Source of the DNA: a bacterium
GTDB taxonomy: Bacteria > Patescibacteriota > Minisyncoccia > Minisyncoccales > CG1-02-41-26
Assembly (NCBI GenBank): GCA_021162885.1
Contig: JAGGXV010000022.1
Location: 57,571 to 121,570, forward strand
Length of the DNA: 64,000 nucleotides
Direction of reading: 5' to 3'
Shown: one piece after another, positions 2,650 through 63,407 of the stretch
Position numbering within the stretch: the stretch's first letter is position 1
How the letters are laid out: the number at the start of each line of letters is the position of its first letter
The notes under the pieces: generated by a model
What the model was told of the DNA's origin: nothing
Databases searched by the model: none
What the model saw: only the letters and a program-made list of their open reading frames with translations
Program-made: the position numbers and the translations under genes

Positions 2650-4761
2650 TTACTCTTTGAAATATCCTTGAGTTTTGAGTTGAGAAATTTTTCTTTTCAA
2701 ATTCTTTTTTGCTCGGTATTCAGCTATTTCTCTTTTTCTTTTTTCTGTCCATTTATCTAAGGCAATAAATTTCGATTTGAGAATCCAAACTACAGCAAAT
2801 GCTATTCCCAAAGGAAATAAAACGGAATCTAAAATTCTATTGGTAATACCGGTGGGAACTTCAGTAATAATTCCAGCCACCGCTTTTCTTCGAACCCTAA
2901 CTTTACAGCTATCAGTATCGGAAGTTTCCTCGTTATAAGCTCGGGCAGTGTTGATTAGCTCAGTTTGGCCGTAGCCAAATTTTCTTTCAGAAGCGACTTT
3001 TGCTCGAAAGATAATTGTCTTTGACTTTCCCGGCGACAAATCTCCTATATTAATAGCGGTTTTGGTTATATTTTTGGTTTCAGGAACATTATCTATTTCT
3101 AAATTACCTTGATAGATTATTTTTGATGGCAAATCATCTTTTACCTTTACATTTTGAACCACCGCATCACCAGTTGATTTGACTACTATCTTAAAAAGCA
3201 ATTCATCTCCAGGGTTAGCACTTCTGTAGATGTTATACCATTTGCTATCTCCCCGAGACAGATTCTTGACTGATTTTGCAACACTTAACTCTCCTTCACC
3301 TAAACTTTTTACCCTTAAACTCCATTGACAATTTTTATTAGAAGAATCTCCATCAAGCCCGATGACGATATCTGAAGAAGGGGTTCCTTGCCAAGTTTTT
3401 GTCCAATAGTTATTTTCTCTAGAATATATTTTACTGCAGCCAGAACTGTAAATAACCAAATCATTTACATTACAACCTGCTCCTGACCAACTCAATTCAA
3501 CTTTAATTTTTTTACCAGCAGATTCTCGAACTTTGTAATATTTCCAATCGCCATTGTTCAAACAACCATCTCTTGAGTCGCCAATATACATATAACCATC
3601 AGGATTGGAACAGCTTGAAGTGCTTTTTGAACAAACTTCCTCCTCTTCTTGGTTAAGCACTAAAACTTGCATGCTATCAGAATCACTAAGCCCTTTATCG
3701 TCAGTAACAGTTAAGGTACAAGTGTAGGTTCTGTCATAACTGACTTCTGGTGCCGTGAAACTTGGTTGAGCAATATATCTGTTGGAAATATAACCTCCGG
3801 TACAGGACCATCGATAGCTTATTGGGTCTCCGTCAGGATCAGAGCCAGAGCCTTCTAAAGTTATTGAGTGGCTTTCGTAAACCTCTTTATCGGGCCCTGC
3901 AAAAGCCGTCGGTGAGTGATTGATATTATCCACTTTGGTAGTTACGATATTGCTTTCCAATGGCTCTGTTTCAGAGCTATCAATAACCGCTTTGTTGTAA
4001 ATGTAAGTTGTGCCAACCGGAAGACCATCTTTAATTCTAACTTTAAATATCTTAGTGCTCGAATCGCCTGCCTCTAAAGTCCCAATATTCCAGCTGATTT
4101 TTCCCCCAGAAACACTGCCTCCATCATTATCGTAAATATCAAGATAATTCTCGTCGTAATCATCGGATATTACTACCCCAGTGGCTGCGGCTTTCCCAGA
4201 ATTTTTGTAAGATAAAATATAACTTAATATTTCACCTGGTTGAGCCGTACTTTTATCAACCGATTTGCTTATTGAGAGTTCTGGAGTAAAAATTTCTTTA
4301 AGAGAAAAAGTTGCTGATATGTTGCGCACGCTATTTGCTTGGCCCGGCCAGTCATGGGTGTTCCAGCGATGGTCAACTCTAAGTGTATGCACCCCAGCAC
4401 TAAGGTCTCTTTCTCCTAAATTCTCATTTATATAACAATCTGTTCCGCAATCATGTGTTGTGCCAATATATTCTCCGTCAACAAAAAATTTAACTTGTTC
4501 GTGCTTTTGTATCTCGGGGCCATTGCAGTAAGCGTTAAGATAGAGGTCGTATTTTCCCCCATAAGGTAAATTAATGGTGGTTGTTCGCGAATGGATTGGA
4601 TGGTAATCGTCCCAAGCGCAAACTCCTCCTCCAAAATCTGCTGTGTATTCAGCAATATAGCTCTGAGCAAAAGCAAAATTTAAAGGCAAAACTATCCCTA
4701 TTAGAACTAAAGATAACATTTTGCTAGAGATTATTAGTTTGTTTTTGTTTTCGTCAGTCAT
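2650..4761 (-). CDS. large secreted cell-surface protein with DUF11/CARDB-like repeats and a PKD domain, C-terminal TM anchor and charged tail
   Basis: 703 aa. N-terminal signal/TM (LSLVLIGIVLPLNFAFA). PKD-like PDGDPISYRWSCTGG. C-terminus ...EVPTGITNRILDSVLFPLGIAFAVVWIL then KSKF...KRKREIAEYRAKK (sorting-signal-like). Confidence 0.6.
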   Translation of the reverse strand: MTDENKNKLIISSKMLSLVLIGIVLPLNFAFAQSYIAEYTADFGGGVCAWDDYHPIHSRTTTINLPYGGKYDLYLNAYCNGPEIQKHEQVKFFVDGEYIGTTHDCGTDCYINENLGERDLSAGVHTLRVDHRWNTHDWPGQANSVRNISATFSLKEIFTPELSISKSVDKSTAQPGEILSYILSYKNSGKAAATGVVISDDYDENYLDIYDNDGGSVSGGKISWNIGTLEAGDSSTKIFKVRIKDGLPVGTTYIYNKAVIDSSETEPLESNIVTTKVDNINHSPTAFAGPDKEVYESHSITLEGSGSDPDGDPISYRWSCTGGYISNRYIAQPSFTAPEVSYDRTYTCTLTVTDDKGLSDSDSMQVLVLNQEEEEVCSKSTSSCSNPDGYMYIGDSRDGCLNNGDWKYYKVRESAGKKIKVELSWSGAGCNVNDLVIYSSGCSKIYSRENNYWTKTWQGTPSSDIVIGLDGDSSNKNCQWSLRVKSLGEGELSVAKSVKNLSRGDSKWYNIYRSANPGDELLFKIVVKSTGDAVVQNVKVKDDLPSKIIYQGNLEIDNVPETKNITKTAINIGDLSPGKSKTIIFRAKVASERKFGYGQTELINTARAYNEETSDTDSCKVRVRRKAVAGIITEVPTGITNRILDSVLFPLGIAFAVVWILKSKFIALDKWTEKRKREIAEYRAKKNLKRKISQLKTQGYFKE

Positions 4762-20918: not shown

Positions 20919-20936
20919 GATTGTCTTATATTGCTG

Positions 20937-21009
20937 AGCCAACGCGCGGATTTGAACCGCGAACCTACCCCTTACCATGGGGTTGCTCTACCGACTGAGC
21001 TACGTTGGC
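20937..21009 (-). tRNA. tRNA-Thr (anticodon GGT)
   Basis: Minus strand GCCAACGTAGCTCAGTCGGTAGAGCAACCCCATGGTAAGGGGTAGGTTCGCGGTTCAAATCCGCGCGTTGGCT; anticodon loop ATGGTAA. Confidence 0.8.
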
Positions 21010-21026: not shown

Positions 21027-21617
21027 TTATTGAACTTCTCTAATCATCTTAAAAATCTTCTCCTTTAATTTTTTATTGGTTACAGTTATATTCAATACTC
21101 CAAATTTACTCTTTTTTCGGTAAGTCCCTTTTCCTTGAGGAGGTATCCTAATTATTTTACCAAGCTGGTCCTTTTTAATTCCAAGATGTTGCTCCCAAAA
21201 TTTTATGGCCTCTTTTTCATTACAATCATTAAATAAAGTTAGATAATATCCAAATTTTTCTTCTTTAGTACCGCATATCTCTACTAAAAATTCCCGAAAT
21301 TTCTTAATGAGTTGAGGGTCACTATTACTCATTCGAACGGCTGTATTATTACTACTTTTATCCCCTTCGCCCCAGTATAAACCTAACCCGATTCCTTTTA
21401 ATAAAATTTCCTCCTTATTGAGCTTATTTTTGATCTCAAATGGATCACCATTTGGATTTCTTTTGACATAAGTAGCTTCGCTCATCGATCTCCGTGGAAT
21501 GCCAAATTTTCTCATCCAATAAACGATTTTTTCATATTTCCACCCTGTTCTATCAGAAATTTCCATCATTGATAAACCACTCTTATATAGTTTTTTTAAT
21601 TTTTCTTTGGGCAACAT
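21027..21617 (-). CDS. free-standing LAGLIDADG-like homing endonuclease with N-terminal HTH, paralog of 62296-62982
   Basis: LYKSGLSMMEISDRTGWKYEKIVYWMRKFGI (HTH). GIGLGLYWGEGDK (LAGLIDADG-like). NSDPQLIKKFREFLVEICG. Shares motif order with the second copy (YWSEG..., NSDPKMILLMLRWFKEIC). Flanked directly by tRNA-Tyr (1 nt away) and tRNA-Thr (17 nt). Confidence 0.5.
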   Translation of the reverse strand: MLPKEKLKKLYKSGLSMMEISDRTGWKYEKIVYWMRKFGIPRRSMSEATYVKRNPNGDPFEIKNKLNKEEILLKGIGLGLYWGEGDKSSNNTAVRMSNSDPQLIKKFREFLVEICGTKEEKFGYYLTLFNDCNEKEAIKFWEQHLGIKKDQLGKIIRIPPQGKGTYRKKSKFGVLNITVTNKKLKEKIFKMIREVQ

Positions 21618-21701
21618 TGGGTGTGAGTGGAGTCGAACCACCTGGGCTCAGAGAGCTATGGTTTTACAGACCATCCCCGCGCCGTACGGGACTACACACC
21701 C
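21618..21701 (-). tRNA. tRNA-Tyr (anticodon GTA), long variable arm
   Basis: Minus strand GGGTGTGTAGTCCCGTACGGCGCGGGGATGGTCTGTAAAACCATAGCTCTCTGAGCCCAGGTGGTTCGACTCCACTCACACCCA. Anticodon stem ATGGT/ACCAT with loop CTGTAAA. Confidence 0.8.
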
Positions 21702-54902: not shown

Positions 54903-57900
54903 CTATATATCCAAGTTCTTTACTTTTTTAGCATGAACCTGAATAAACTTTTTCCTCGGCAAAACTTCTTTCCCCATCAAAATGTCAAAAATATGATCAG
55001 CGGCTTTGGCGTCTTCAATAGTTACTTGAAGTAATATTCGATTCTCTGGATTCATAGTCGTTTCCCAGAGTTCTTCGGGGTTCATCTCTCCCAACCCCTT
55101 GTAGCGCTGAATATTAATACTCTTTTCTTCTTTCTTCGTCTTTTTAATATCAGATAAAATCTCTTGTTTGTCTTGCTCAGTATAAGCATATTCTGTTCTT
55201 TTCCCTACTTGGATTTTATATAAGGGTGGTTGAGCAATATAAAGGTATCCTTTTTCAACCACTTCTCTGAAATAGCGGAAAAACAAAGTTAAAAGAAGCG
55301 TCCTTATATGGGCACCATCGGTATTCTTAAGAAGAACTCCACCAGGACTGGCAATAAAATTCTGATCTCCTAAAACAGAAAGGTCATAGACAAATTTGTC
55401 TTTAATATTTTTTAGCTTTTTAATGCTTTTTACTTTAAGTCCGACGAAATCTTGAGAAATGGGTTGGATATATTTTCCAATAACTTTTTTATAATTTACT
55501 TCTTTGAGAAGATACATTTCTAATCTTTCAGCATCTTTATGATCCTGCCAAACATTTTTAGTTTTCCATAAATAATCCACTGTAGATATTGATAAATCAT
55601 AAGATTTAAAATTAGACCTGATAAGCTTCCCGTCTTTGCTGTAATGGTTTTTGGTTTGATTAACACCATAAGCTGGAAATATTCCCCATTGCCGAAAAAT
55701 AGTAAGTATTCCTTCAATCAATCTCTGCGAAGACAAACGCCAGCCATAAATTGCTTTAGTTTTACTGGTTTTTTTACTTGTCCAAACTATAATAAAGCCA
55801 TCGCTCTGAAGCAATCCTTTAAGGAGTGCCGTTTGAATTTCTCTTTTTGTATTGAAAAATATATCTGGAATAAACTTCTCATTTGCTCTCTTGCCCAGTA
55901 CTCCAAGCTTTGCAAGAAGTAACCGAAACTCAAAAGAATGAAAGTGTAACTGAATATTATTCTCTTTCTTATAATCTAAAATAGGTTTAGCATTAAACTT
56001 TTCTTTTATAATCCGGGAAAGATTTTTAATATATTTACTTTCTTTTTCTTTGTTTAGAGAAAATGCAAACCTATTTGGATTCTTATCTTCGGGTATTGCA
56101 CAGCCATCTCCTAAAAACCAGCCAATTAAATACGCTAAATCTTTATCTAGCTTAAATTCAGTTTTAATTTTGTGAGTATGATTTCCGTAATAAAATTTGG
56201 CGGATTCAGGAAATTTATTTCCTTTCCAATCTTCTAAAGGAATATAAACATTACAATTGATTCGATAAAAATCCTGATTAATTTGGTTTAAATAATTTCG
56301 GAGGAGAGCGAATCTTGGCATTACATTGTCAAATTTCTCCTCCCATTGCTGGATTACTCCTCTTCCTACTTTAACTAAATTCTCCATTTTTAATCTTGAA
56401 ATTTGGTTTTTTACTCTTTCTTGTTTTAACTTCTGAAAATAATATTTTGGAATCTCTATCCAAGCAGAAGAAGGAATTTTTTTTAGTACTTCCTTTTTCA
56501 CCTTTACAGAAACATTTTTTGGTTTTTCCTTTAAAAGAACACTTTTTAAATCAATAATAAAATCTTTATCTTGACGCGGAAATAATCTTGGAAATATTAA
56601 GAGATCTCCCCTCTTAATATCTTTTGTTTTCTTAGTTCTAATCTTTTTGTTTTCATAAACATAAACGCTATGACAATCAGTTACTTTAACAGGGTAACCA
56701 CAATAAGTTTTAATTTCATATAAATCTGTCCTTAAGGGATGACGGATCGTCTGTAAAATTTCTTTAAGTTCTAGTTTTTTTGTCTTCAGATTGCAAGTTA
56801 AAACCTTGTATTTTGTGGTATCGTCGCAATTTTCAATAAACTCGCCGGCTTGGGTGCAAAAGAAACTCTTCTTTTCTTTGTCATAAAGGAAAATTGAAGT
56901 ATCTCCGGTTATTGAGTCCGCGTCAGTCATTATTATAATTCGGTGATACCGCAGTTTGTTTATGTCAAAATCTTGAGCGATGGCCGTACCCAAAGCAATG
57001 ATTAAAGATTTTAATTCTTGGGAAGCTAAAATTTTATCTAACCTCGCTCTTTCAACATTCAAAATCTTTCCTTTTAAAGGCAGAATTGCTTGAAACGTTC
57101 TGTCTCTGGCTTGTTTTCCACTGCCACCAGCCGAATCACCTTCAACAATATAAAGCTCAGAGTCCTCAGGATTTTTAGAAGAGCAATCAGCTAATTTTCC
57201 GGGCAAAGTTAAACCTTCCAAAACTCCTTTTCTTAAAACTGTAGTTCTGGCTGCCTTGGCCGCTCTCCGAGCTCTGGCTGCTAAAAGACAATTCTCAATA
57301 ATCGCTTTGGCATCTTGGGGATTTTTTTCCAGAAAATCAGCTAAACCTTCTGAGAAAACGCTATCAACAACGGTCTTGGCTTCAGGGTTACCAAGTTTTG
57401 CCTTGGTCTGACCTTCAAATTGAGGTTCTTTTAATTTTACCGAAATTGCTGCCACCAATCCCTCTCTAACATCTCCCCCACTAAAATTTTCCTCTTTTTC
57501 GGAAAGGTAGCCATTTTTTCTGGCATAATCATTCAGGACTCGAGTCAAAGCAGTCCGGAAACCAGTCAAATGAGTCCCACCCTCGCCTGTAAAAATATTA
57601 TTGACAAACCCTTCTTCAAGAGCCTCCATCTCTTTAGCATATTGAAAAGCGACCTCAACTAAAATTCCTTCTTTCTCTCCTCGAGTATAACAAATGTTCT
57701 CGTGACGAACTTCCCCGTCCCCAATTAAATATTTAATGTAAGAGCGAAGTCCTCCTTCAAAATAAAAGTTATATAAAGTTGGTGGAGATTCTCGCTCGTC
57801 CCGAACACTTATTTTAACTCCCGGAGTTAGATAGGCCTGTTGACGGAGATGATTTAAAATCCTTTCCGAGTTAAAGTAAATACTCCTGAAAATCTCTGGA

Positions 57901-58457
57901 TCAGGTTCAAAAATGACGGTGGTACCTGACTTTTTACACTTCCCAATTTTCTTTACTTTTGTGATTGCCTTGCCTCGAGAGTATTCTTGAGCATATCTCT
58001 CTCCCTGCCGACAAACCTCCACTCTCATATACTTTGATAAGGCACAAACAACTGAAACCCCCACGCCGTGCAAACCACCAGCTACCTGATAGGCTTTTCC
58101 TCCAAATTTCGCTCCAGCATGCAAAGTGGTCATTACTGTTTCTAAAGCAGATTTACCAGTTTGAGGATGCTTCTCAACCGGAATCCCTCTGCCATTGTCT
58201 TCACATCTAACTCTATTATCTGGAAGAAGAGTAATCTTTATTTCGTTGGCGTAACCAGCCACGCATTCGTCAATTCCGTTATCCAATACTTCCCAGATTA
58301 AGTGGTGTAAACCTTCGGGACCTGTTGAACCGATATACATTCCCGGCCTTTTTCTCACCGGCTCCAAACCCTTTAAGACATATATATCCTCGGCTGTGTA
58401 TGACTCCTTTTTAGTTTTCTTTTTTGCTTTTTTAGAAGGCATGGTTTTAATTTTCAA
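54903..58457 (-). CDS. gyrB: DNA gyrase subunit B precursor containing a 531-aa intein
   Basis: GHKL ATPase N-terminus ...GLHHLIWEVLDNGIDE... Toprim ...RYHRIIIMTDAD | intein | TDGAHIRTLLLTLFFRY... C-terminus. Extein total about 653 aa. Confidence 0.9.
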   Translation of the reverse strand: MKIKTMPSKKAKKKTKKESYTAEDIYVLKGLEPVRKRPGMYIGSTGPEGLHHLIWEVLDNGIDECVAGYANEIKITLLPDNRVRCEDNGRGIPVEKHPQTGKSALETVMTTLHAGAKFGGKAYQVAGGLHGVGVSVVCALSKYMRVEVCRQGERYAQEYSRGKAITKVKKIGKCKKSGTTVIFEPDPEIFRSIYFNSERILNHLRQQAYLTPGVKISVRDERESPPTLYNFYFEGGLRSYIKYLIGDGEVRHENICYTRGEKEGILVEVAFQYAKEMEALEEGFVNNIFTGEGGTHLTGFRTALTRVLNDYARKNGYLSEKEENFSGGDVREGLVAAISVKLKEPQFEGQTKAKLGNPEAKTVVDSVFSEGLADFLEKNPQDAKAIIENCLLAARARRAAKAARTTVLRKGVLEGLTLPGKLADCSSKNPEDSELYIVEGDSAGGSGKQARDRTFQAILPLKGKILNVERARLDKILASQELKSLIIALGTAIAQDFDINKLRYHRIIIMTDADSITGDTSIFLYDKEKKSFFCTQAGEFIENCDDTTKYKVLTCNLKTKKLELKEILQTIRHPLRTDLYEIKTYCGYPVKVTDCHSVYVYENKKIRTKKTKDIKRGDLLIFPRLFPRQDKDFIIDLKSVLLKEKPKNVSVKVKKEVLKKIPSSAWIEIPKYYFQKLKQERVKNQISRLKMENLVKVGRGVIQQWEEKFDNVMPRFALLRNYLNQINQDFYRINCNVYIPLEDWKGNKFPESAKFYYGNHTHKIKTEFKLDKDLAYLIGWFLGDGCAIPEDKNPNRFAFSLNKEKESKYIKNLSRIIKEKFNAKPILDYKKENNIQLHFHSFEFRLLLAKLGVLGKRANEKFIPDIFFNTKREIQTALLKGLLQSDGFIIVWTSKKTSKTKAIYGWRLSSQRLIEGILTIFRQWGIFPAYGVNQTKNHYSKDGKLIRSNFKSYDLSISTVDYLWKTKNVWQDHKDAERLEMYLLKEVNYKKVIGKYIQPISQDFVGLKVKSIKKLKNIKDKFVYDLSVLGDQNFIASPGGVLLKNTDGAHIRTLLLTLFFRYFREVVEKGYLYIAQPPLYKIQVGKRTEYAYTEQDKQEILSDIKKTKKEEKSINIQRYKGLGEMNPEELWETTMNPENRILLQVTIEDAKAADHIFDILMGKEVLPRKKFIQVHAKKVKNLDI
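55323..56915 (-). mobile_element. GyrB intein with LAGLIDADG homing-endonuclease domain (inserted after the Toprim DAD motif)
   Basis: Intein N-terminus SITGDTSIF... LAGLIDADG motifs LAYLIGWFLGDGCAIPED and LLKGLLQSDGFIIVW. C-terminus ...GVLLKN followed by Thr +1. Confidence 0.7.
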
Positions 58458-61865: not shown

Positions 61866-62131
61866 ATTATTCTTTCATTTTACCCTAATTTTCAACAAGA
61901 AACAAGCTATAGTTATCCACAAAAAAACTCTGGAATATCTATTTCCAGAGGAACAAATAAGGACAATTTTCATTGTTATAAACCCTTTAAAAATGTTTAA
62001 TTGGATGGTAGATGGCAAAGTTCAAACAAACTTTGACTAAAATCTAATACGTAAAATAATGGCGATCGTCTCTGTCTTACATATTCACTGAAACAAAAAG
62101 CCAAGCGTTTGAGCTTGCTTTTTTTGTACTG

Positions 62132-62205
62132 CGCGGGCGATCGGATTTGAACCGACGGTCTCCACTGTGACAGAGTGGCGCTTTAAACCACTAAGCTACG
62201 CCCGC
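62132..62205 (-). tRNA. tRNA-Asp (anticodon GTC)
   Basis: Minus strand GCGGGCGTAGCTTAGTGGTTTAAAGCGCCACTCTGTCACAGTGGAGACCGTCGGTTCAAATCCGATCGCCCGC. Confidence 0.8.
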
Positions 62206-62212
62206 ATTTTCA

Positions 62213-62283
62213 TGTCGGGGGTGGGAATCGAACCCACATTAACCGCTTATGAGACGGCTTTAGAAACCACTCTACTCCCCGAC
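62213..62283 (-). tRNA. tRNA-Met (anticodon CAT; elongator-type or Ile2-type, not initiator-like)
   Basis: Minus strand GTCGGGGAGTAGAGTGGTTTCTAAAGCCGTCTCATAAGCGGTTAATGTGGGTTCGATTCCCACCCCCGAC. Anticodon loop CTCATAA; T-loop TTCGATT. Confidence 0.65.
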
Positions 62284-62295
62284 ATCATCAACGCA

Positions 62296-62982
62296 TCATT
62301 TAATCCCCTTCGCTAACCCTTCAATCCAGCCATGAATCCTTCTTCTTAGTTGAGTGCCCTGCCGAACTGTGATTCTCAAAGTACCATAATAGTTATTATA
62401 ATTTGAGTAAATCTTTTTGGTTTTGCTTTTTATTAAAACCGTTTTATTAAATTGTCCAACTGGAATCTTGGTAAGATCTGACCAATAATTCTCTACTTCT
62501 TTAGTTCTATCTTTATGAGTTTCATTTATTTTAACCTGTAGAGAAATATCATCATCTGAAACCTTACAAATTTCTTTAAACCATCGTAACATTAACAGAA
62601 TCATTTTCGGGTCTGAATTTGTAAAACCGACCTGCTCTCCACCAGAATATGTATATCCTTCGCTCCAATACATGGCTACTCCGGCGATGAAAAGATCTCT
62701 TTTGCTTAACTTACCAATTTCCTTTATCCCCTGTTTTCGCAAAAGCGCTACTTCTTTTATTCTTTCTTTTCTTATTCTTTCTAAAAATTTCATTCTTCCT
62801 TTATAACTTCCGGATTCTTGTCTTTTGGCTAACCTCTCAATTTGTTCTGGACCAAGTTGAATATTGCGGCACCACGAACTTACAGTACTTTTGGCTATAT
62901 TTAACTTCGCAGAAATTTCATTTATGCTTCTCCCTTTCTTGCGTAGTTTAAGCGCTTTATTTTTTTCTATAAATCTAACCAT
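62296..62982 (-). CDS. LAGLIDADG-like homing endonuclease with N-terminal HTH (second copy), downstream of a group I intron-like core
   Basis: LRKKGRSINEISAKLNIAKSTVSSWCRNIQL (HTH). IAGVAMYWSEGYTYSGG, FTNSDPKMILLMLRWFKEIC share motif order with 21027-21617. Confidence 0.5.
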   Translation of the reverse strand: MVRFIEKNKALKLRKKGRSINEISAKLNIAKSTVSSWCRNIQLGPEQIERLAKRQESGSYKGRMKFLERIRKERIKEVALLRKQGIKEIGKLSKRDLFIAGVAMYWSEGYTYSGGEQVGFTNSDPKMILLMLRWFKEICKVSDDDISLQVKINETHKDRTKEVENYWSDLTKIPVGQFNKTVLIKSKTKKIYSNYNNYYGTLRITVRQGTQLRRRIHGWIEGLAKGIK

Positions 62983-62989
62983 GAACCCA

Positions 62990-63400
62990 CCGTAATATAT
63001 ATTATTTAATTATACCGTGGGTCCAAAAATATCGCAATGTAGATAAACTTGTTGCGGGGCTGGGAATTGCACCCAGGTCTCGAGGTTCTTTAATGTTAGC
63101 CATTTGTTTCCAAATGGAACGGACTATACCATTCCCCTTCTTTTAATCAAAAGAAGGGGACTCCCATTATAGTCTCTGAACCTTCCAAGCACATATAGCG
63201 TTATATGCTCGGCTTGGCTGCTGATTACCCCACCCACTATGCTAATTGTAGATATTATTCCTTGCTTAGAGGACGGGTTTCTCAGCAATTTAGGGAATTT
63301 TTCACGAAATGTTGCCATTTCGAGCCACAAAGTCTTATGGGCCTCGCAAGATACTACTTCTCCACCCCGCGATTTCATTTTATATTAAATTTAAAAGAAA
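62990..63400 (-). ncRNA. group I intron-like ribozyme core (P, Q, R, S elements, P8 and P9 hairpins)
   Basis: Minus strand: P AAATTGCTGAGAAACCC; Q TAATCAGCAGCC; R GTTCAGAGACTATAATG (Tetrahymena GTTCACAGACTAAATG); P8 CCCCTTCTTTTGATTAAAAGAAGGGG; S GGTATAGTCCG (AAGATATAGTCGG); P9 CCATTTGGAAACAAATGG. Located immediately 5' of the homing-endonuclease ORF. Confidence 0.5.
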
Positions 63401-63407
63401 TTCAACC

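What the first reader, a model, noticed from the sequence alone, without database searches (positions are those of the whole stretch)
62296..63400. Group I intron-like ribozyme core immediately upstream of the second LAGLIDADG gene, with no obvious interrupted host gene
On the minus strand, between the stop of an unknown membrane-protein gene (63408) and the endonuclease ORF (62982), the sequence contains in the correct order the group I P, Q, R and S consensus elements plus P8 and P9 hairpins (R GTTCAGAGACTATAATG; S GGTATAGTCCG; P AAATTGCTGAGAAA; Q TAATCAGCAGCC). The endonuclease ORF would lie in the 3' (P9) extension. Yet the downstream tRNA-Met (62213-62283) is intact and the upstream gene ends cleanly, so the exons are unclear. 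This could be a free-standing or degenerate intron-endonuclease unit, an intron in a 3' UTR, or a twin-ribozyme-type arrangement.
Basis: partly seen in the sequence, partly recalled or inferred. Interest (0 to 1): 0.6.

Follow-up and report, generated by a model that had tools for sequence, protein, structure and literature searches.

The report
Self-splicing intron inside initiator tRNA gene
The ribozyme is real, but it is an ordinary-type group I intron splitting the anticodon loop of the initiator methionine tRNA gene of a Parcubacteria (CPR) bacterium, and the neighbouring "endonuclease" gene lies outside the intron as an optional, probably mobile cassette.

Summary
The group I core is confirmed: Rfam Intron_gpI scores 69.2 bits against a cut-off of 50. 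In 21 relatives, 97% of cells pair and 43 of 62 pairs show compensatory changes.

The "missing" host gene is the initiator tRNA-Met gene. The 5' exon is 63371..63337, the intron is 63336..63088 (249 nt, inserted after CAU) and the 3' exon is 63087..63051, all on the minus strand. In-silico splicing gives a clean tRNA-Met(CAU) with a C1·A72 mismatch.

The 228-aa ORF (62982..62296) is not in P9. It starts 68 nt after the 3' exon and has its own promoter. It combines an N-terminal HTH with a divergent domain that resembles LAGLIDADG only weakly: the best PDB sequence hit is I-DmoI, with no Pfam or Foldseek support.

- Every informative ORF-anchored locus with at least 41% identity (about 29, Parcubacteria) carries an intron-split tRNA-fMet next to the ORF. 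Two intron types occur, at two positions.
- In an intron-anchored sample, 18 of 42 scorable loci lack the ORF, so it is an optional ~0.7 kb insertion. Some copies are decayed.
- The ORF has lower dS than the nearby pheS gene.

Best reading: a free-standing homing-endonuclease-like gene paired with an ORF-less intron, resembling phage "collaborative homing". Endonuclease activity and target site are untested.

The parts
63377..63405 (-). Promoter-like site (TTGAAT-17-TAAAAT) just upstream of the tRNA-fMet 5' exon
   Evidence: Consensus scan. The -10 box ends 6 nt before the first tRNA base (63371). This is a consensus match only.
63337..63371 (-). 5' exon of the initiator tRNA-Met (tRNA-fMet) gene. 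It covers the acceptor 5' strand, the D arm, the anticodon stem 5' strand and the loop up to CAU.
   Evidence: The sequence is CGCGGGGTGGAGAAGTAGTATCTTGCGAGGCCCAT and ends in the U that forms the invariant U·G pair of P1.
63088..63336 (-). Group I intron, 249 nt, with no ORF, inserted between tRNA positions 36 and 37 (after anticodon CAU). It ends in the conserved terminal G.
   Evidence: Rfam hit at 69.2 bits. Splice sites come from in-silico splicing with ARAGORN. The terminal G and the U·G pair are invariant in 21/21 sequences.
63325..63340 (-). P1: 5' exon end plus first intron bases (63340-63335) paired with the internal guide (63330-63325)
   Evidence: Three of six pairs show compensatory changes (exon C/U co-varies with guide G/A), and the U·G pair is 21/21.
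63161..63297 (-). P3 (63297-63293 with 63165-63161), enclosing the P4-P6 domain.
   Evidence: All 5 P3 pairs and all 7 P6 pairs have changes on both sides. P4 is nearly invariant.
63122..63174 (-).
   Evidence: P7 is invariant except for one compensatory A-U to G-C change in L009. All 7 P8 pairs are compensatory.
63100..63117 (-). P9 hairpin
   Evidence: 6 of 7 pairs have changes on both sides.
63051..63087 (-). 3' exon of tRNA-fMet: AA of the anticodon loop, anticodon stem 3' strand, variable region, T arm and acceptor 3' strand, ending ...CCCCGCAAC
   Evidence: The anticodon stem 63346-63342 pairs with 63085-63081 in 100% of cells, and 4 of 5 pairs are compensatory.
63009..63037 (-). Sigma-70-like promoter of the ORF (TTGCGA-17-TATAAT)
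   Evidence: TATAAT sits at a fixed -32/-33 from the ATG in most same-strand relatives.
62983..63024 (-). Inverted repeat or hairpin. The left arm GGACCCACGG lies in the promoter spacer, and the right arm ACGGTGGGTTC ends directly before the ATG.
   Evidence: A 12-13 bp stem is kept in relatives through compensatory changes, with z-scores between -3 and -7 in most.
62296..62982 (-). Free-standing 228-aa ORF: an N-terminal helix-turn-helix plus a divergent LAGLIDADG-like domain (motif LFIAGVAMYWSEGY, with E108 conserved)
   Evidence: Pfam finds only the HTH. The family profile's best PDB sequence hit is I-DmoI at E 6.6e-4, and hhalign gives probability 58%. Foldseek finds no LAGLIDADG match. 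dN/dS is 0.10-0.16.
62213..62283 (-). Intact tRNA-Met(CAU) with a paired 1-72 position, the next gene in the cluster. It starts 12 nt after the ORF stop codon.
   Evidence: In ORF-less relatives this tRNA starts 7-23 nt after tRNA-fMet.
62131..62205 (-). tRNA-Asp(GUC), the last gene of the cluster, followed by a terminator-like hairpin (62117-62102)
21027..21614 (-). Paralogue of the ORF (25% identity, motif GLGLYWGEGDK), wedged exactly between tRNA-Tyr (21701-21618) and tRNA-Thr (21009-20936). There is no intron nearby.
   Evidence: family HMM E 7e-28.

Best explanation
Shown. [quoted passage not shown] The internal guide pairs with the last bases of the 5' exon (...CCCAU) and makes the U·G pair that marks the 5' splice site. 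The intron ends in the conserved G. Joining the exons restores a normal 72-nt tRNA.

The gene order on the minus strand is promoter, tRNA-fMet[intron], promoter, ORF, tRNA-Met, tRNA-Asp, terminator. The 228-aa ORF is a separate cassette of about 0.7 kb with its own promoter, sitting between tRNA-fMet and tRNA-Met. Relatives carry the same intron with or without this cassette.

Inferred. The ORF encodes a homing-type endonuclease built from a helix-turn-helix domain and a divergent single-motif LAGLIDADG-like domain that probably dimerises. It belongs to a large family that sits next to tRNA genes. Its likely target is the uninterrupted, naturally palindromic anticodon stem-loop DNA of tRNA-fMet genes. 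An intron inserted there (type A at 36/37 or type B at 33/34) destroys the site and protects the carrier. Repair of a cut intron-less allele would then copy both intron and ORF, as in 'collaborative homing'.

The hairpin over the ORF's promoter and start codon probably keeps expression low on read-through tRNA transcripts.
For: Intron and host gene:
- Rfam scores 69.2 bits.
- ARAGORN calls tRNA-Met(CAT) with C1·A72 and A11:U24 after in-silico splicing.
- The same split gene is found in 28 of 34 ORF-anchored genome loci and 55 metagenome loci.
- In the alignment, 97.1% of cells pair, 43/62 pairs are compensatory and the anticodon stem co-varies across the intron.

ORF outside the intron and optional:
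- The gap from 3' exon to ATG is 18-89 nt.
- In the intron-anchored sample, 24 loci have the ORF, 18 lack it with adequate flanks and 13 are undetermined.
- tRNA-Met starts 7-23 nt after tRNA-fMet in several ORF-less loci, against 705-774 nt in most ORF-bearing loci.

Mobile or selfish signature:
- Three copies are truncated or frameshifted: L033, L086 and L049.
- ORF dS is 0.97 and 1.23, against 3.1 and 3.3 for pheS 1-3 kb away in the same genome pairs. ORF amino-acid identity exceeds PheS identity in all 5 pairs.
- The ORF occurs on either side of tRNA-fMet, always with its promoter end facing the tRNA gene.
- Paralogues abut tRNA-Tyr/Thr, Gln, Trp and Thr, and one lies inside a phage tRNA array.

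Link to the intron:
- All ~29 informative ORF-anchored loci with >=41% identity have an intron in the anticodon loop.
- Both intron types occur, and the ORF clusters do not follow intron type.

Nuclease-like domain:
- I-DmoI is the top hit of an unbiased profile search of PDB sequences. The alignment places YW(G/S)EGxK against YVAEGDK.
- E108 is conserved in >=90% of 83 diverse members.

Precedent: collaborative homing of F-CphI with the psbA intron (PMC6083498; review PMC3984707).
Against: - No cleavage activity or target is known, so the target assignment is inference.
- No intron-less tRNA-fMet allele from this clade was recovered. 'ORF always with intron' could therefore simply reflect an intron fixed in the clade.
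- If the intron is fixed, a nuclease aimed at intron-less alleles would have no targets. Its strong purifying selection (dN/dS ~0.1) would then be hard to explain.
- Paralogues sit beside intron-less tRNA genes, so the family does not generally need an intron for immunity.
- LAGLIDADG homology is weak. There is no Pfam hit, Foldseek finds no LAGLIDADG fold (top TM-score <=0.43) and hhalign against I-CreI finds nothing.
- The lower dS could partly reflect codon or RNA-structure constraints.
Confidence: 0.5

Rival explanations
1. The ORF is a free-standing homing endonuclease, but its target is something other than the intron insertion site. Candidates are the tRNA-fMet/tRNA-Met spacer, a flanking tRNA exon or the intron itself. 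On this view the intron is an old resident, fixed in this clade, and plays no part in protecting or moving the ORF ('intron-less homing', as for T4 seg and mob genes).
For: - The intron is common without the ORF (18 of 42 scorable loci). Such alleles would be the natural recipients.
- Paralogues sit between intron-less tRNA genes in the window, in other loci and in a phage tRNA array.
- No intron-less tRNA-fMet allele was seen.
- Intron identity does not track ORF identity: WIN and L001 share 68.5% in the intron but 80% in the ORF protein.
Against: - The ORF is found on either side of tRNA-fMet, so the anchor is that gene and not the spacer to tRNA-Met.
- Two unrelated intron types at two positions of the same 7-nt loop accompany one ORF lineage. 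That pattern is expected if interruption of the loop is what matters.
Confidence: 0.27
2. The ORF is a domesticated host factor. It could be a trans-acting maturase that helps the tRNA-fMet intron fold, or an HTH regulator of the tRNA cluster that binds the inverted repeat over its own promoter. On this view it no longer acts as a mobile nuclease.
For: - Purifying selection is strong (dN/dS 0.10-0.16) and protein identity is higher than for PheS.
- The ORF is distributed across many Parcubacteria lineages, always beside the intron-split, presumably essential initiator tRNA gene.
- It has an HTH domain and a conserved palindrome over its promoter.
- LAGLIDADG proteins are known to moonlight as maturases (PMC3384342).
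Against: - 43% of scorable intron loci have no adjacent ORF, and some ORF copies are truncated or frameshifted. The intron therefore does not need it in cis, and it is dispensable.
- The same ORF lineage accompanies two different introns.
- Paralogues sit next to intron-less tRNAs.
- The conserved acidic residue of the motif is kept.
- dS is lower than in neighbouring genes, which points to horizontal exchange.
Confidence: 0.15
3. One reading: a free-standing or degenerate intron-endonuclease unit with the ORF in a P9 extension, an intron in a 3' UTR, or a twin-ribozyme arrangement.
For: Only the proximity of the ribozyme and the ORF on the same strand.
Against: - The exons are identified and splice to a canonical tRNA.
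- The 3' splice site is 106 nt upstream of the ATG.
- ORF-less relatives have the same intron ends.
- The window has only one Intron_gpI hit.
Confidence: 0.01

Closest known systems
Cyanobacterial tRNA-fMet group I introns (Synechocystis PCC 6803, Gloeobacter and others; Biniszkiewicz 1994 and Paquin 1997, as cited in PMC8450103 and PMC1995217)
   Same: [quoted passage not shown] Standard tRNA finders miss the gene, so it appears 'missing'.
   Different: The host here is a Parcubacteria (CPR) bacterium. The Synechocystis intron carries its endonuclease (I-Ssp6803I, PD-(D/E)XK, 150 aa) inside the intron, whereas here the intron has no ORF and the associated gene is outside it and of a different fold family.
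Other bacterial tRNA anticodon-loop introns (tRNA-Leu(UAA) of Anabaena, tRNA-Ile of Azoarcus, tRNA-Arg; subgroup IC3; PMC3984707)
   Same: Small introns of about 200-290 nt in the anticodon loop. The exon anticodon stem forms next to P1, and that stem co-varies across the intron here, which fits the reported need for exon pairing in Anabaena (Zaug 1993, cited in PMC3984707).
   Different: The host tRNA and insertion positions differ (36/37 and 33/34 of tRNA-fMet). Subgroup assignment was not tested.
Collaborative (trans) homing: F-CphI with the psbA intron of cyanophage S-PM2, and mobE with I-TevIII in T4 (PMC6083498, PMC2790892, PMC3984707)
   Same: [quoted passage not shown] The ORF is optional among relatives.
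   Different: Known cases are in phages and in protein-coding genes, with Endo VII or HNH enzymes. This one is in a bacterial chromosome and in a tRNA gene, with a LAGLIDADG-like protein. Cleavage at the intron insertion site is not shown here.
Free-standing homing endonuclease SegB in the phage T4 tRNA gene cluster
   Same: An endonuclease gene wedged between tRNA genes. The one phage relative found here sits in a 15-tRNA array.
   Different: SegB is a GIY-YIG enzyme. There is no sequence relationship.
I-DmoI and single-domain LAGLIDADG endonucleases of CPR rRNA introns (I-ShaI; PMC11270868)
   Same: A single motif of the form G-x-x-x-Y-W-(G/S)-E-G-x-K aligns with the second LAGLIDADG motif of I-DmoI (YVAEGDK). 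The predicted order of helices and strands starts alpha-beta-beta-alpha-beta. The host group (CPR) is rich in such enzymes.
   Different: The ORF does not reach any Pfam LAGLIDADG model, Foldseek finds no LAGLIDADG structure, there is an extra helix between strands 3 and 4, an N-terminal HTH is added, and the gene is not intron-encoded.

Membership tests
Group I intron (Rfam RF00028) | Covariance-model score at or above the curated threshold over the full model | tested here: met
   69.2 bits against a threshold of 50, model positions 1-253. Relatives score 56-93 bits.
Group I intron (Rfam RF00028) | Conserved core helices P3-P9, including the P3/P7 pseudoknot, supported by covariation | tested here: met
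   97.1% of cells pair and 43/62 pairs are compensatory. P7 has one compensatory change and is otherwise invariant.
Group I intron (Rfam RF00028) | 5' splice site after a U that pairs with G in P1, and intron terminal G | tested here: met
   The U·G pair is 21/21. The last intron base is G in 21/21.
Group I intron (Rfam RF00028) | Removal restores a functional host gene | tested here: met
   The spliced sequence is called a 72-nt tRNA-Met(CAT) by ARAGORN in the window and in 28 genome loci.
Group I intron (Rfam RF00028) | Self-splicing activity | not testable with these tools
   This needs in vitro transcription and splicing, or RNA-seq.
Bacterial initiator tRNA (tRNA-fMet) | CAU anticodon, mismatch at 1:72, A11:U24, and G:C pairs at the bottom of the anticodon stem | tested here: met
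   The window tRNA has C1·A72, A11:U24 and only two G:C pairs at the bottom of the stem (G30:C40, G31:C39), with A29:U41 above them. The canonical three G:C pairs are therefore not complete. Position 33 is C and the T loop is UGCAAUU, both unusual.
Subgroup IC3 tRNA introns | Subgroup-specific peripheral architecture | not tested
LAGLIDADG homing endonucleases | Match to a curated LAGLIDADG sequence model | tested here: not met
   No Pfam LAGLIDADG_1, _2 or _3 hit in the ORF, in 48 homologues or in 10 distant members.
LAGLIDADG homing endonucleases | Motif helix ending in a conserved acidic residue, with remote homology to solved members | tested here: inconclusive
   A profile of 83 members against all PDB sequences has I-DmoI as its top hit, at E 6.6e-4. 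hhalign gives probability 58% and E 9.6e-5. Comparison with I-CreI finds nothing. E108 is kept in >=90% of members.
LAGLIDADG homing endonucleases | alpha-beta-beta-alpha-beta-beta-alpha fold | tested here: not met
LAGLIDADG homing endonucleases | Site-specific double-strand DNA cleavage | not testable with these tools
   This needs a biochemical assay.
Collaborative homing module | A free-standing endonuclease gene adjacent to, but outside, an ORF-less intron | tested here: met
Collaborative homing module | The endonuclease gene is optional among otherwise syntenic relatives | tested here: met
   24 loci with the ORF against 18 without it. The ORF-bearing loci carry a clean insertion of about 0.7 kb.
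Collaborative homing module | The endonuclease cuts the intron-less allele at the intron insertion site, and the intron protects the carrier | not testable with these tools
   The only indirect support is that the ORF is always found with an interrupted anticodon loop, of either intron type.

The most novel reading that the evidence does not exclude
This may be the first cellular (non-phage) and first tRNA-gene example of collaborative homing. On this reading, a large unannotated family of HTH plus LAGLIDADG-like endonucleases (about 2,900 clusters at 50% identity) targets tRNA genes in CPR bacteria and their phages. Its tRNA-fMet-specific branch would have driven two different group I introns to occupy the anticodon loop of the sole initiator tRNA gene across Parcubacteria.
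Probability: 0.4. Interest if true: 0.7.

Novelty: new variant of a known kind. Interest (0 to 1): 0.55.

Why it matters
- Annotation. The initiator tRNA gene of many Parcubacteria is split by a group I intron, so tRNA finders miss it. ARAGORN did so here. These genomes then look as if they lack tRNA-fMet, which affects completeness estimates and ideas about translation initiation in CPR bacteria.
- Biology. An essential, probably single-copy gene depends on ribozyme splicing across a whole clade.
- Mobile-element evolution. The locus offers natural states with and without the endonuclease-like cassette, two intron types at two positions, and both gene orientations. This is the material needed to test how free-standing endonucleases and ORF-less introns become partners.
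- Protein families. A large Pfam-less family next to tRNA genes becomes a concrete candidate for new site-specific nucleases.

Tried and rejected
- ARAGORN with introns allowed on the unspliced sequence found nothing. Splice sites had to be found by enumerating U...G junctions and testing each with ARAGORN.
- Pfam, NCBIfam and PHROGs on the ORF gave only HTH hits.
- Searching PDB sequences with the single protein or the shallow alignment A1 gave only HTH hits.
- hhalign against I-CreI gave nothing.
- Foldseek against the PDB, with the full model and with the C-terminal domain model, gave no significant fold match.
- The two-stretch family members that were scanned looked like two fused HTH-plus-domain units where both HTH regions were visible, not like single-chain double-motif enzymes.
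- My first automatic typing of metagenome loci mislabelled several tRNA-fMet introns as other tRNAs. I corrected this by inspection and by a stricter filter.
- 65 of the 120 metagenome hits to the 18-mer core were not resolved as type A tRNA-fMet introns. The few I inspected were other group I introns. All 65 were set aside.
- The original papers on the cyanobacterial tRNA-fMet intron are not in the library. Its exact insertion position could therefore not be compared.
- A literature search found no report of tRNA group I introns in CPR bacteria.
- Transposase or IS element was considered and rejected. Only the HTH region matches transposase models, and there is no DDE domain and there are no terminal repeats.
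Full report
**Observation**

The Rfam group I intron model matches 63347..63100 (-) over its full length at 69.2 bits, against a gathering score of 50 (E 1.8e-15). It is the only such hit in the 64 kb. The ribozyme core is therefore real.

**Host gene**

Reading the flanks shows two halves of a tRNA. Upstream of the ribozyme is CGCGGGGTGGAGAAGTAGTATCTTGCGAGGCCCAT. Downstream of P9 is AACCTCGAGACCTGGGTGCAATTCCCAGCCCCGCAAC.

Joining 63371..63337 to 63087..63051 gives a 72-nt tRNA-Met(CAT) that ARAGORN calls. It has a C1·A72 mismatch and A11:U24, the marks of a bacterial initiator tRNA. ARAGORN finds nothing on the unspliced DNA. The intron is therefore 63336..63088 (249 nt), inserted between positions 36 and 37 of the anticodon loop.

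**Comparative support for the intron**

The neighbouring ORF was used to fetch 34 genome loci, all from Patescibacteria/Parcubacteria assemblies: Nealson-, Portnoy-, Staskawicz-, Adler-, Nomura-, Giovannoni- and Vogelbacteria, and Paceibacter.
- Rfam finds a group I intron above threshold beside the ORF in 21 of them.
- Inspection and junction enumeration with ARAGORN recover a cleanly spliceable tRNA-Met(CAT) in 28 of them.

An alignment of 21 'type A' introns (A3) was scored against a P1-P9 structure that includes the P3/P7 pseudoknot and the exon anticodon stem.
- 97.1% of cells pair, against 79% in column shuffles and 35-45% when partners are slid.
- 43 of 62 pairs have changes on both sides.
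- The splice-site U·G pair is present in 21/21 sequences, and the terminal intron G is invariant.
- The anticodon stem, whose two strands lie on opposite sides of the intron, pairs in 100% of cells, and 4 of its 5 pairs are compensatory. This independently confirms the exon assignment.

A second intron, 'type B', occurs in 8 loci. It sits between positions 33 and 34 (5' exon ...GGCU, 3' exon CAUAACC...). Five of these reach the Rfam threshold.

**The ORF is outside the intron**

The 3' exon ends at 63051 and the ATG is at 62982. Between them lies a sigma-70-like promoter, TTGCGA-17-TATAAT (63037..63009). There is also a 12-13 bp inverted repeat whose left arm is the promoter spacer and whose right arm ends just before the ATG. 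In same-strand relatives TATAAT stays at -32/-33, and the stem is kept through compensatory changes.

A second promoter-like site precedes the 5' exon, and a terminator-like hairpin follows tRNA-Asp. The unit on the minus strand therefore reads: promoter, tRNA-fMet[intron], promoter, ORF, tRNA-Met, tRNA-Asp, terminator.

The function of the hairpin is inferred. It could hide the start region on read-through transcripts, while transcripts from the ORF's own promoter lack the left arm. It could also be an operator for the HTH protein.

**What the ORF encodes**

Pfam, NCBIfam and PHROGs see only an N-terminal helix-turn-helix. The C-terminal 140 residues define a large family without a Pfam model: 2,916 clusters at 50% identity with E <= 1e-3.

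Evidence for a LAGLIDADG relationship:
- A profile of 83 diverse members (A4; consensus RDLFxxGxALYWGEGxK...FxNSDPxMI...WL), searched against all PDB sequences, gives the LAGLIDADG enzyme I-DmoI as its top hit (E 6.6e-4).
- hhalign aligns the motif with the second LAGLIDADG motif of I-DmoI, YVAEGDK (probability 58%, E 9.6e-5). The typed I-DmoI sequence was verified against the PDB.

Evidence against it:
- Foldseek of two AlphaFold models finds no LAGLIDADG structure.
- I-CreI does not align.

I therefore call the domain LAGLIDADG-like and do not file it as a member. The motif's acidic residue (E108) is kept in >=90% of members.

**Is the ORF tied to the intron?**

In the ORF-anchored set, every informative locus with >=41% identity (about 29) has an intron-split tRNA-fMet next to the ORF.
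- In most type A loci, and in L025 and L028, the tRNA gene is 18-89 nt upstream on the same strand.
- In L020-L024, L029 and L030 it is divergent, with the 5' exon 86-258 nt from the ATG.

The reverse sample was anchored on the intron. A metagenome scan with the 18-mer core gave 120 loci, of which 55 are type A tRNA-fMet introns. Of those, 24 have the ORF (16 downstream, 8 divergent), 18 lack it despite adequate flanks, and 13 cannot be scored.

In several ORF-less loci tRNA-Met begins 7-23 nt after tRNA-fMet. In most ORF-bearing loci the gap is 705-774 nt. The ORF is therefore a discrete, optional cassette of about 0.7 kb, and the intron does not need it in cis.

**Signs of a selfish, mobile gene**

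- Three copies are truncated or frameshifted: L033, L086 and L049.
- Intact copies are under purifying selection (dN/dS 0.10-0.16).
- Synonymous divergence from the window is 0.97 (L001) and 1.23 (L005). For pheS, 1-3 kb away in the same genomes, it is 3.1 and 3.3.
- ORF amino-acid identity exceeds PheS identity in all five comparable pairs. This suggests horizontal exchange after the hosts diverged. Codon constraints are a caveat.
- A paralogue in the window (21614..21027) is wedged exactly between tRNA-Tyr and tRNA-Thr.
- Other members abut tRNA-Gln, tRNA-Trp and tRNA-Thr.
- The single IMG/VR relative lies inside a phage array of 15 tRNA genes.

**Mechanism proposed**

The anticodon stem-loop DNA of tRNA-fMet is a natural palindrome (CGAGG-CCCATAA-CCTCG), which suits a dimeric single-motif enzyme. 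The same region is the target of I-Ssp6803I in cyanobacteria (PMC1995217, PMC3384342).

Both intron positions fall in the central 7 bp. ORF clusters do not follow intron type: type A divergent ORFs are 50-55% identical to type B-associated ones but only 42-46% identical to type A same-strand ones. What stays constant is an interrupted loop, not a particular intron. This favours 'the intron protects the carrier' over a co-evolved maturase.

This matches the collaborative-homing scheme described for phage F-CphI and the psbA intron (PMC6083498, PMC3984707). The steps 'protein cuts DNA', 'target is the loop' and 'intron protects' are inferred, not shown.

**Weak points**

- No intron-less tRNA-fMet allele from this clade was recovered. 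The intron could simply be fixed, and the ORF's target could lie elsewhere (rival 1).
- Strong conservation and the HTH-plus-palindrome arrangement keep a domesticated regulator or maturase alive as a minority view (rival 2).

**Comparison with what is known, and novelty**

Group I introns in bacterial tRNA-fMet genes are known from cyanobacteria (cited in PMC8450103 and PMC1995217). The intron itself is therefore a new member of a known kind, in a new phylum.

I found no report of tRNA introns in CPR bacteria. The detailed CPR intron survey covers rRNA genes only and never mentions tRNA (PMC11270868).

The pairing with a free-standing, Pfam-less LAGLIDADG-like gene, in a bacterial chromosome and in a tRNA gene, is a new variant of an arrangement known only from phages.

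**Verdict**

Interest is moderate (0.55).

Noticed in passing
window 21027-21614 (-), with tRNA-Tyr 21618-21701 and tRNA-Thr 20936-21009: A second member of the same HTH plus LAGLIDADG-like family (25% identity, motif GLGLYWGEGDK) fills the gap between tRNA-Tyr and tRNA-Thr exactly. Its ATG directly follows the tRNA-Tyr 3' end and its stop codon is 18 nt before tRNA-Thr. There is no intron nearby.
   Followed up: partly
window 54903-58457 (-): The gyrB gene carries an intein (Pfam Intein_splicing, E 2e-19) with weak LAGLIDADG_2 and LAGLIDADG_3 matches in its middle part (residues about 770-850). This is a third homing-type element in the window.
   Followed up: no
window 63051-63087 and 63337-63371 (-); same in most type A loci: The initiator tRNA is unusual in three ways. 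Position 33 is C instead of U in the CCCAUAA-loop variants. The T loop reads UGCAAUU, with G where the universal U55 normally is. Only two G:C pairs close the anticodon stem. A few relatives (L008, L009, L028) have a canonical GGTTCRA T loop.
   Followed up: no
L155 2501-3136 (IMG/VR UViG_3300033562_000573): The only viral relative of the ORF family (31% identity) lies inside a phage array of 15 tRNA genes in 5.6 kb, between tRNA-Gly(UCC) and tRNA-Thr(UGU).
   Followed up: partly
L035 (Ga0172381_10018537), around the pattern match at 4600-4617 (-): The same 18-nt core (AGGTTCAGAGACTATAAT) occurs in a different group I-like intron. The translated 3' flank looked to me like a DnaK N-terminus, which would suggest an intron in dnaK. 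No search was run on this flank. 65 of the 120 metagenome hits were not resolved as type A tRNA-fMet introns and were not examined further.
   Followed up: no
L121 7258-7935 and 8254-8928: Two family members lie in tandem (56% and 38% identity to the window ORF) downstream of one intron-split tRNA-fMet.
   Followed up: no
L011, L012, L014, L016, L033 (Staskawiczbacteria-like loci); alignment A3 columns 15-37 and 100-165: Type A introns differ by optional peripheral insertions. One is an extra hairpin between the 5' splice site and the internal guide. The other is a P5 extension of about 60 nt that is present in about half of the sequences. The window's own P5 extension has a different sequence from the common one.
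   Followed up: no
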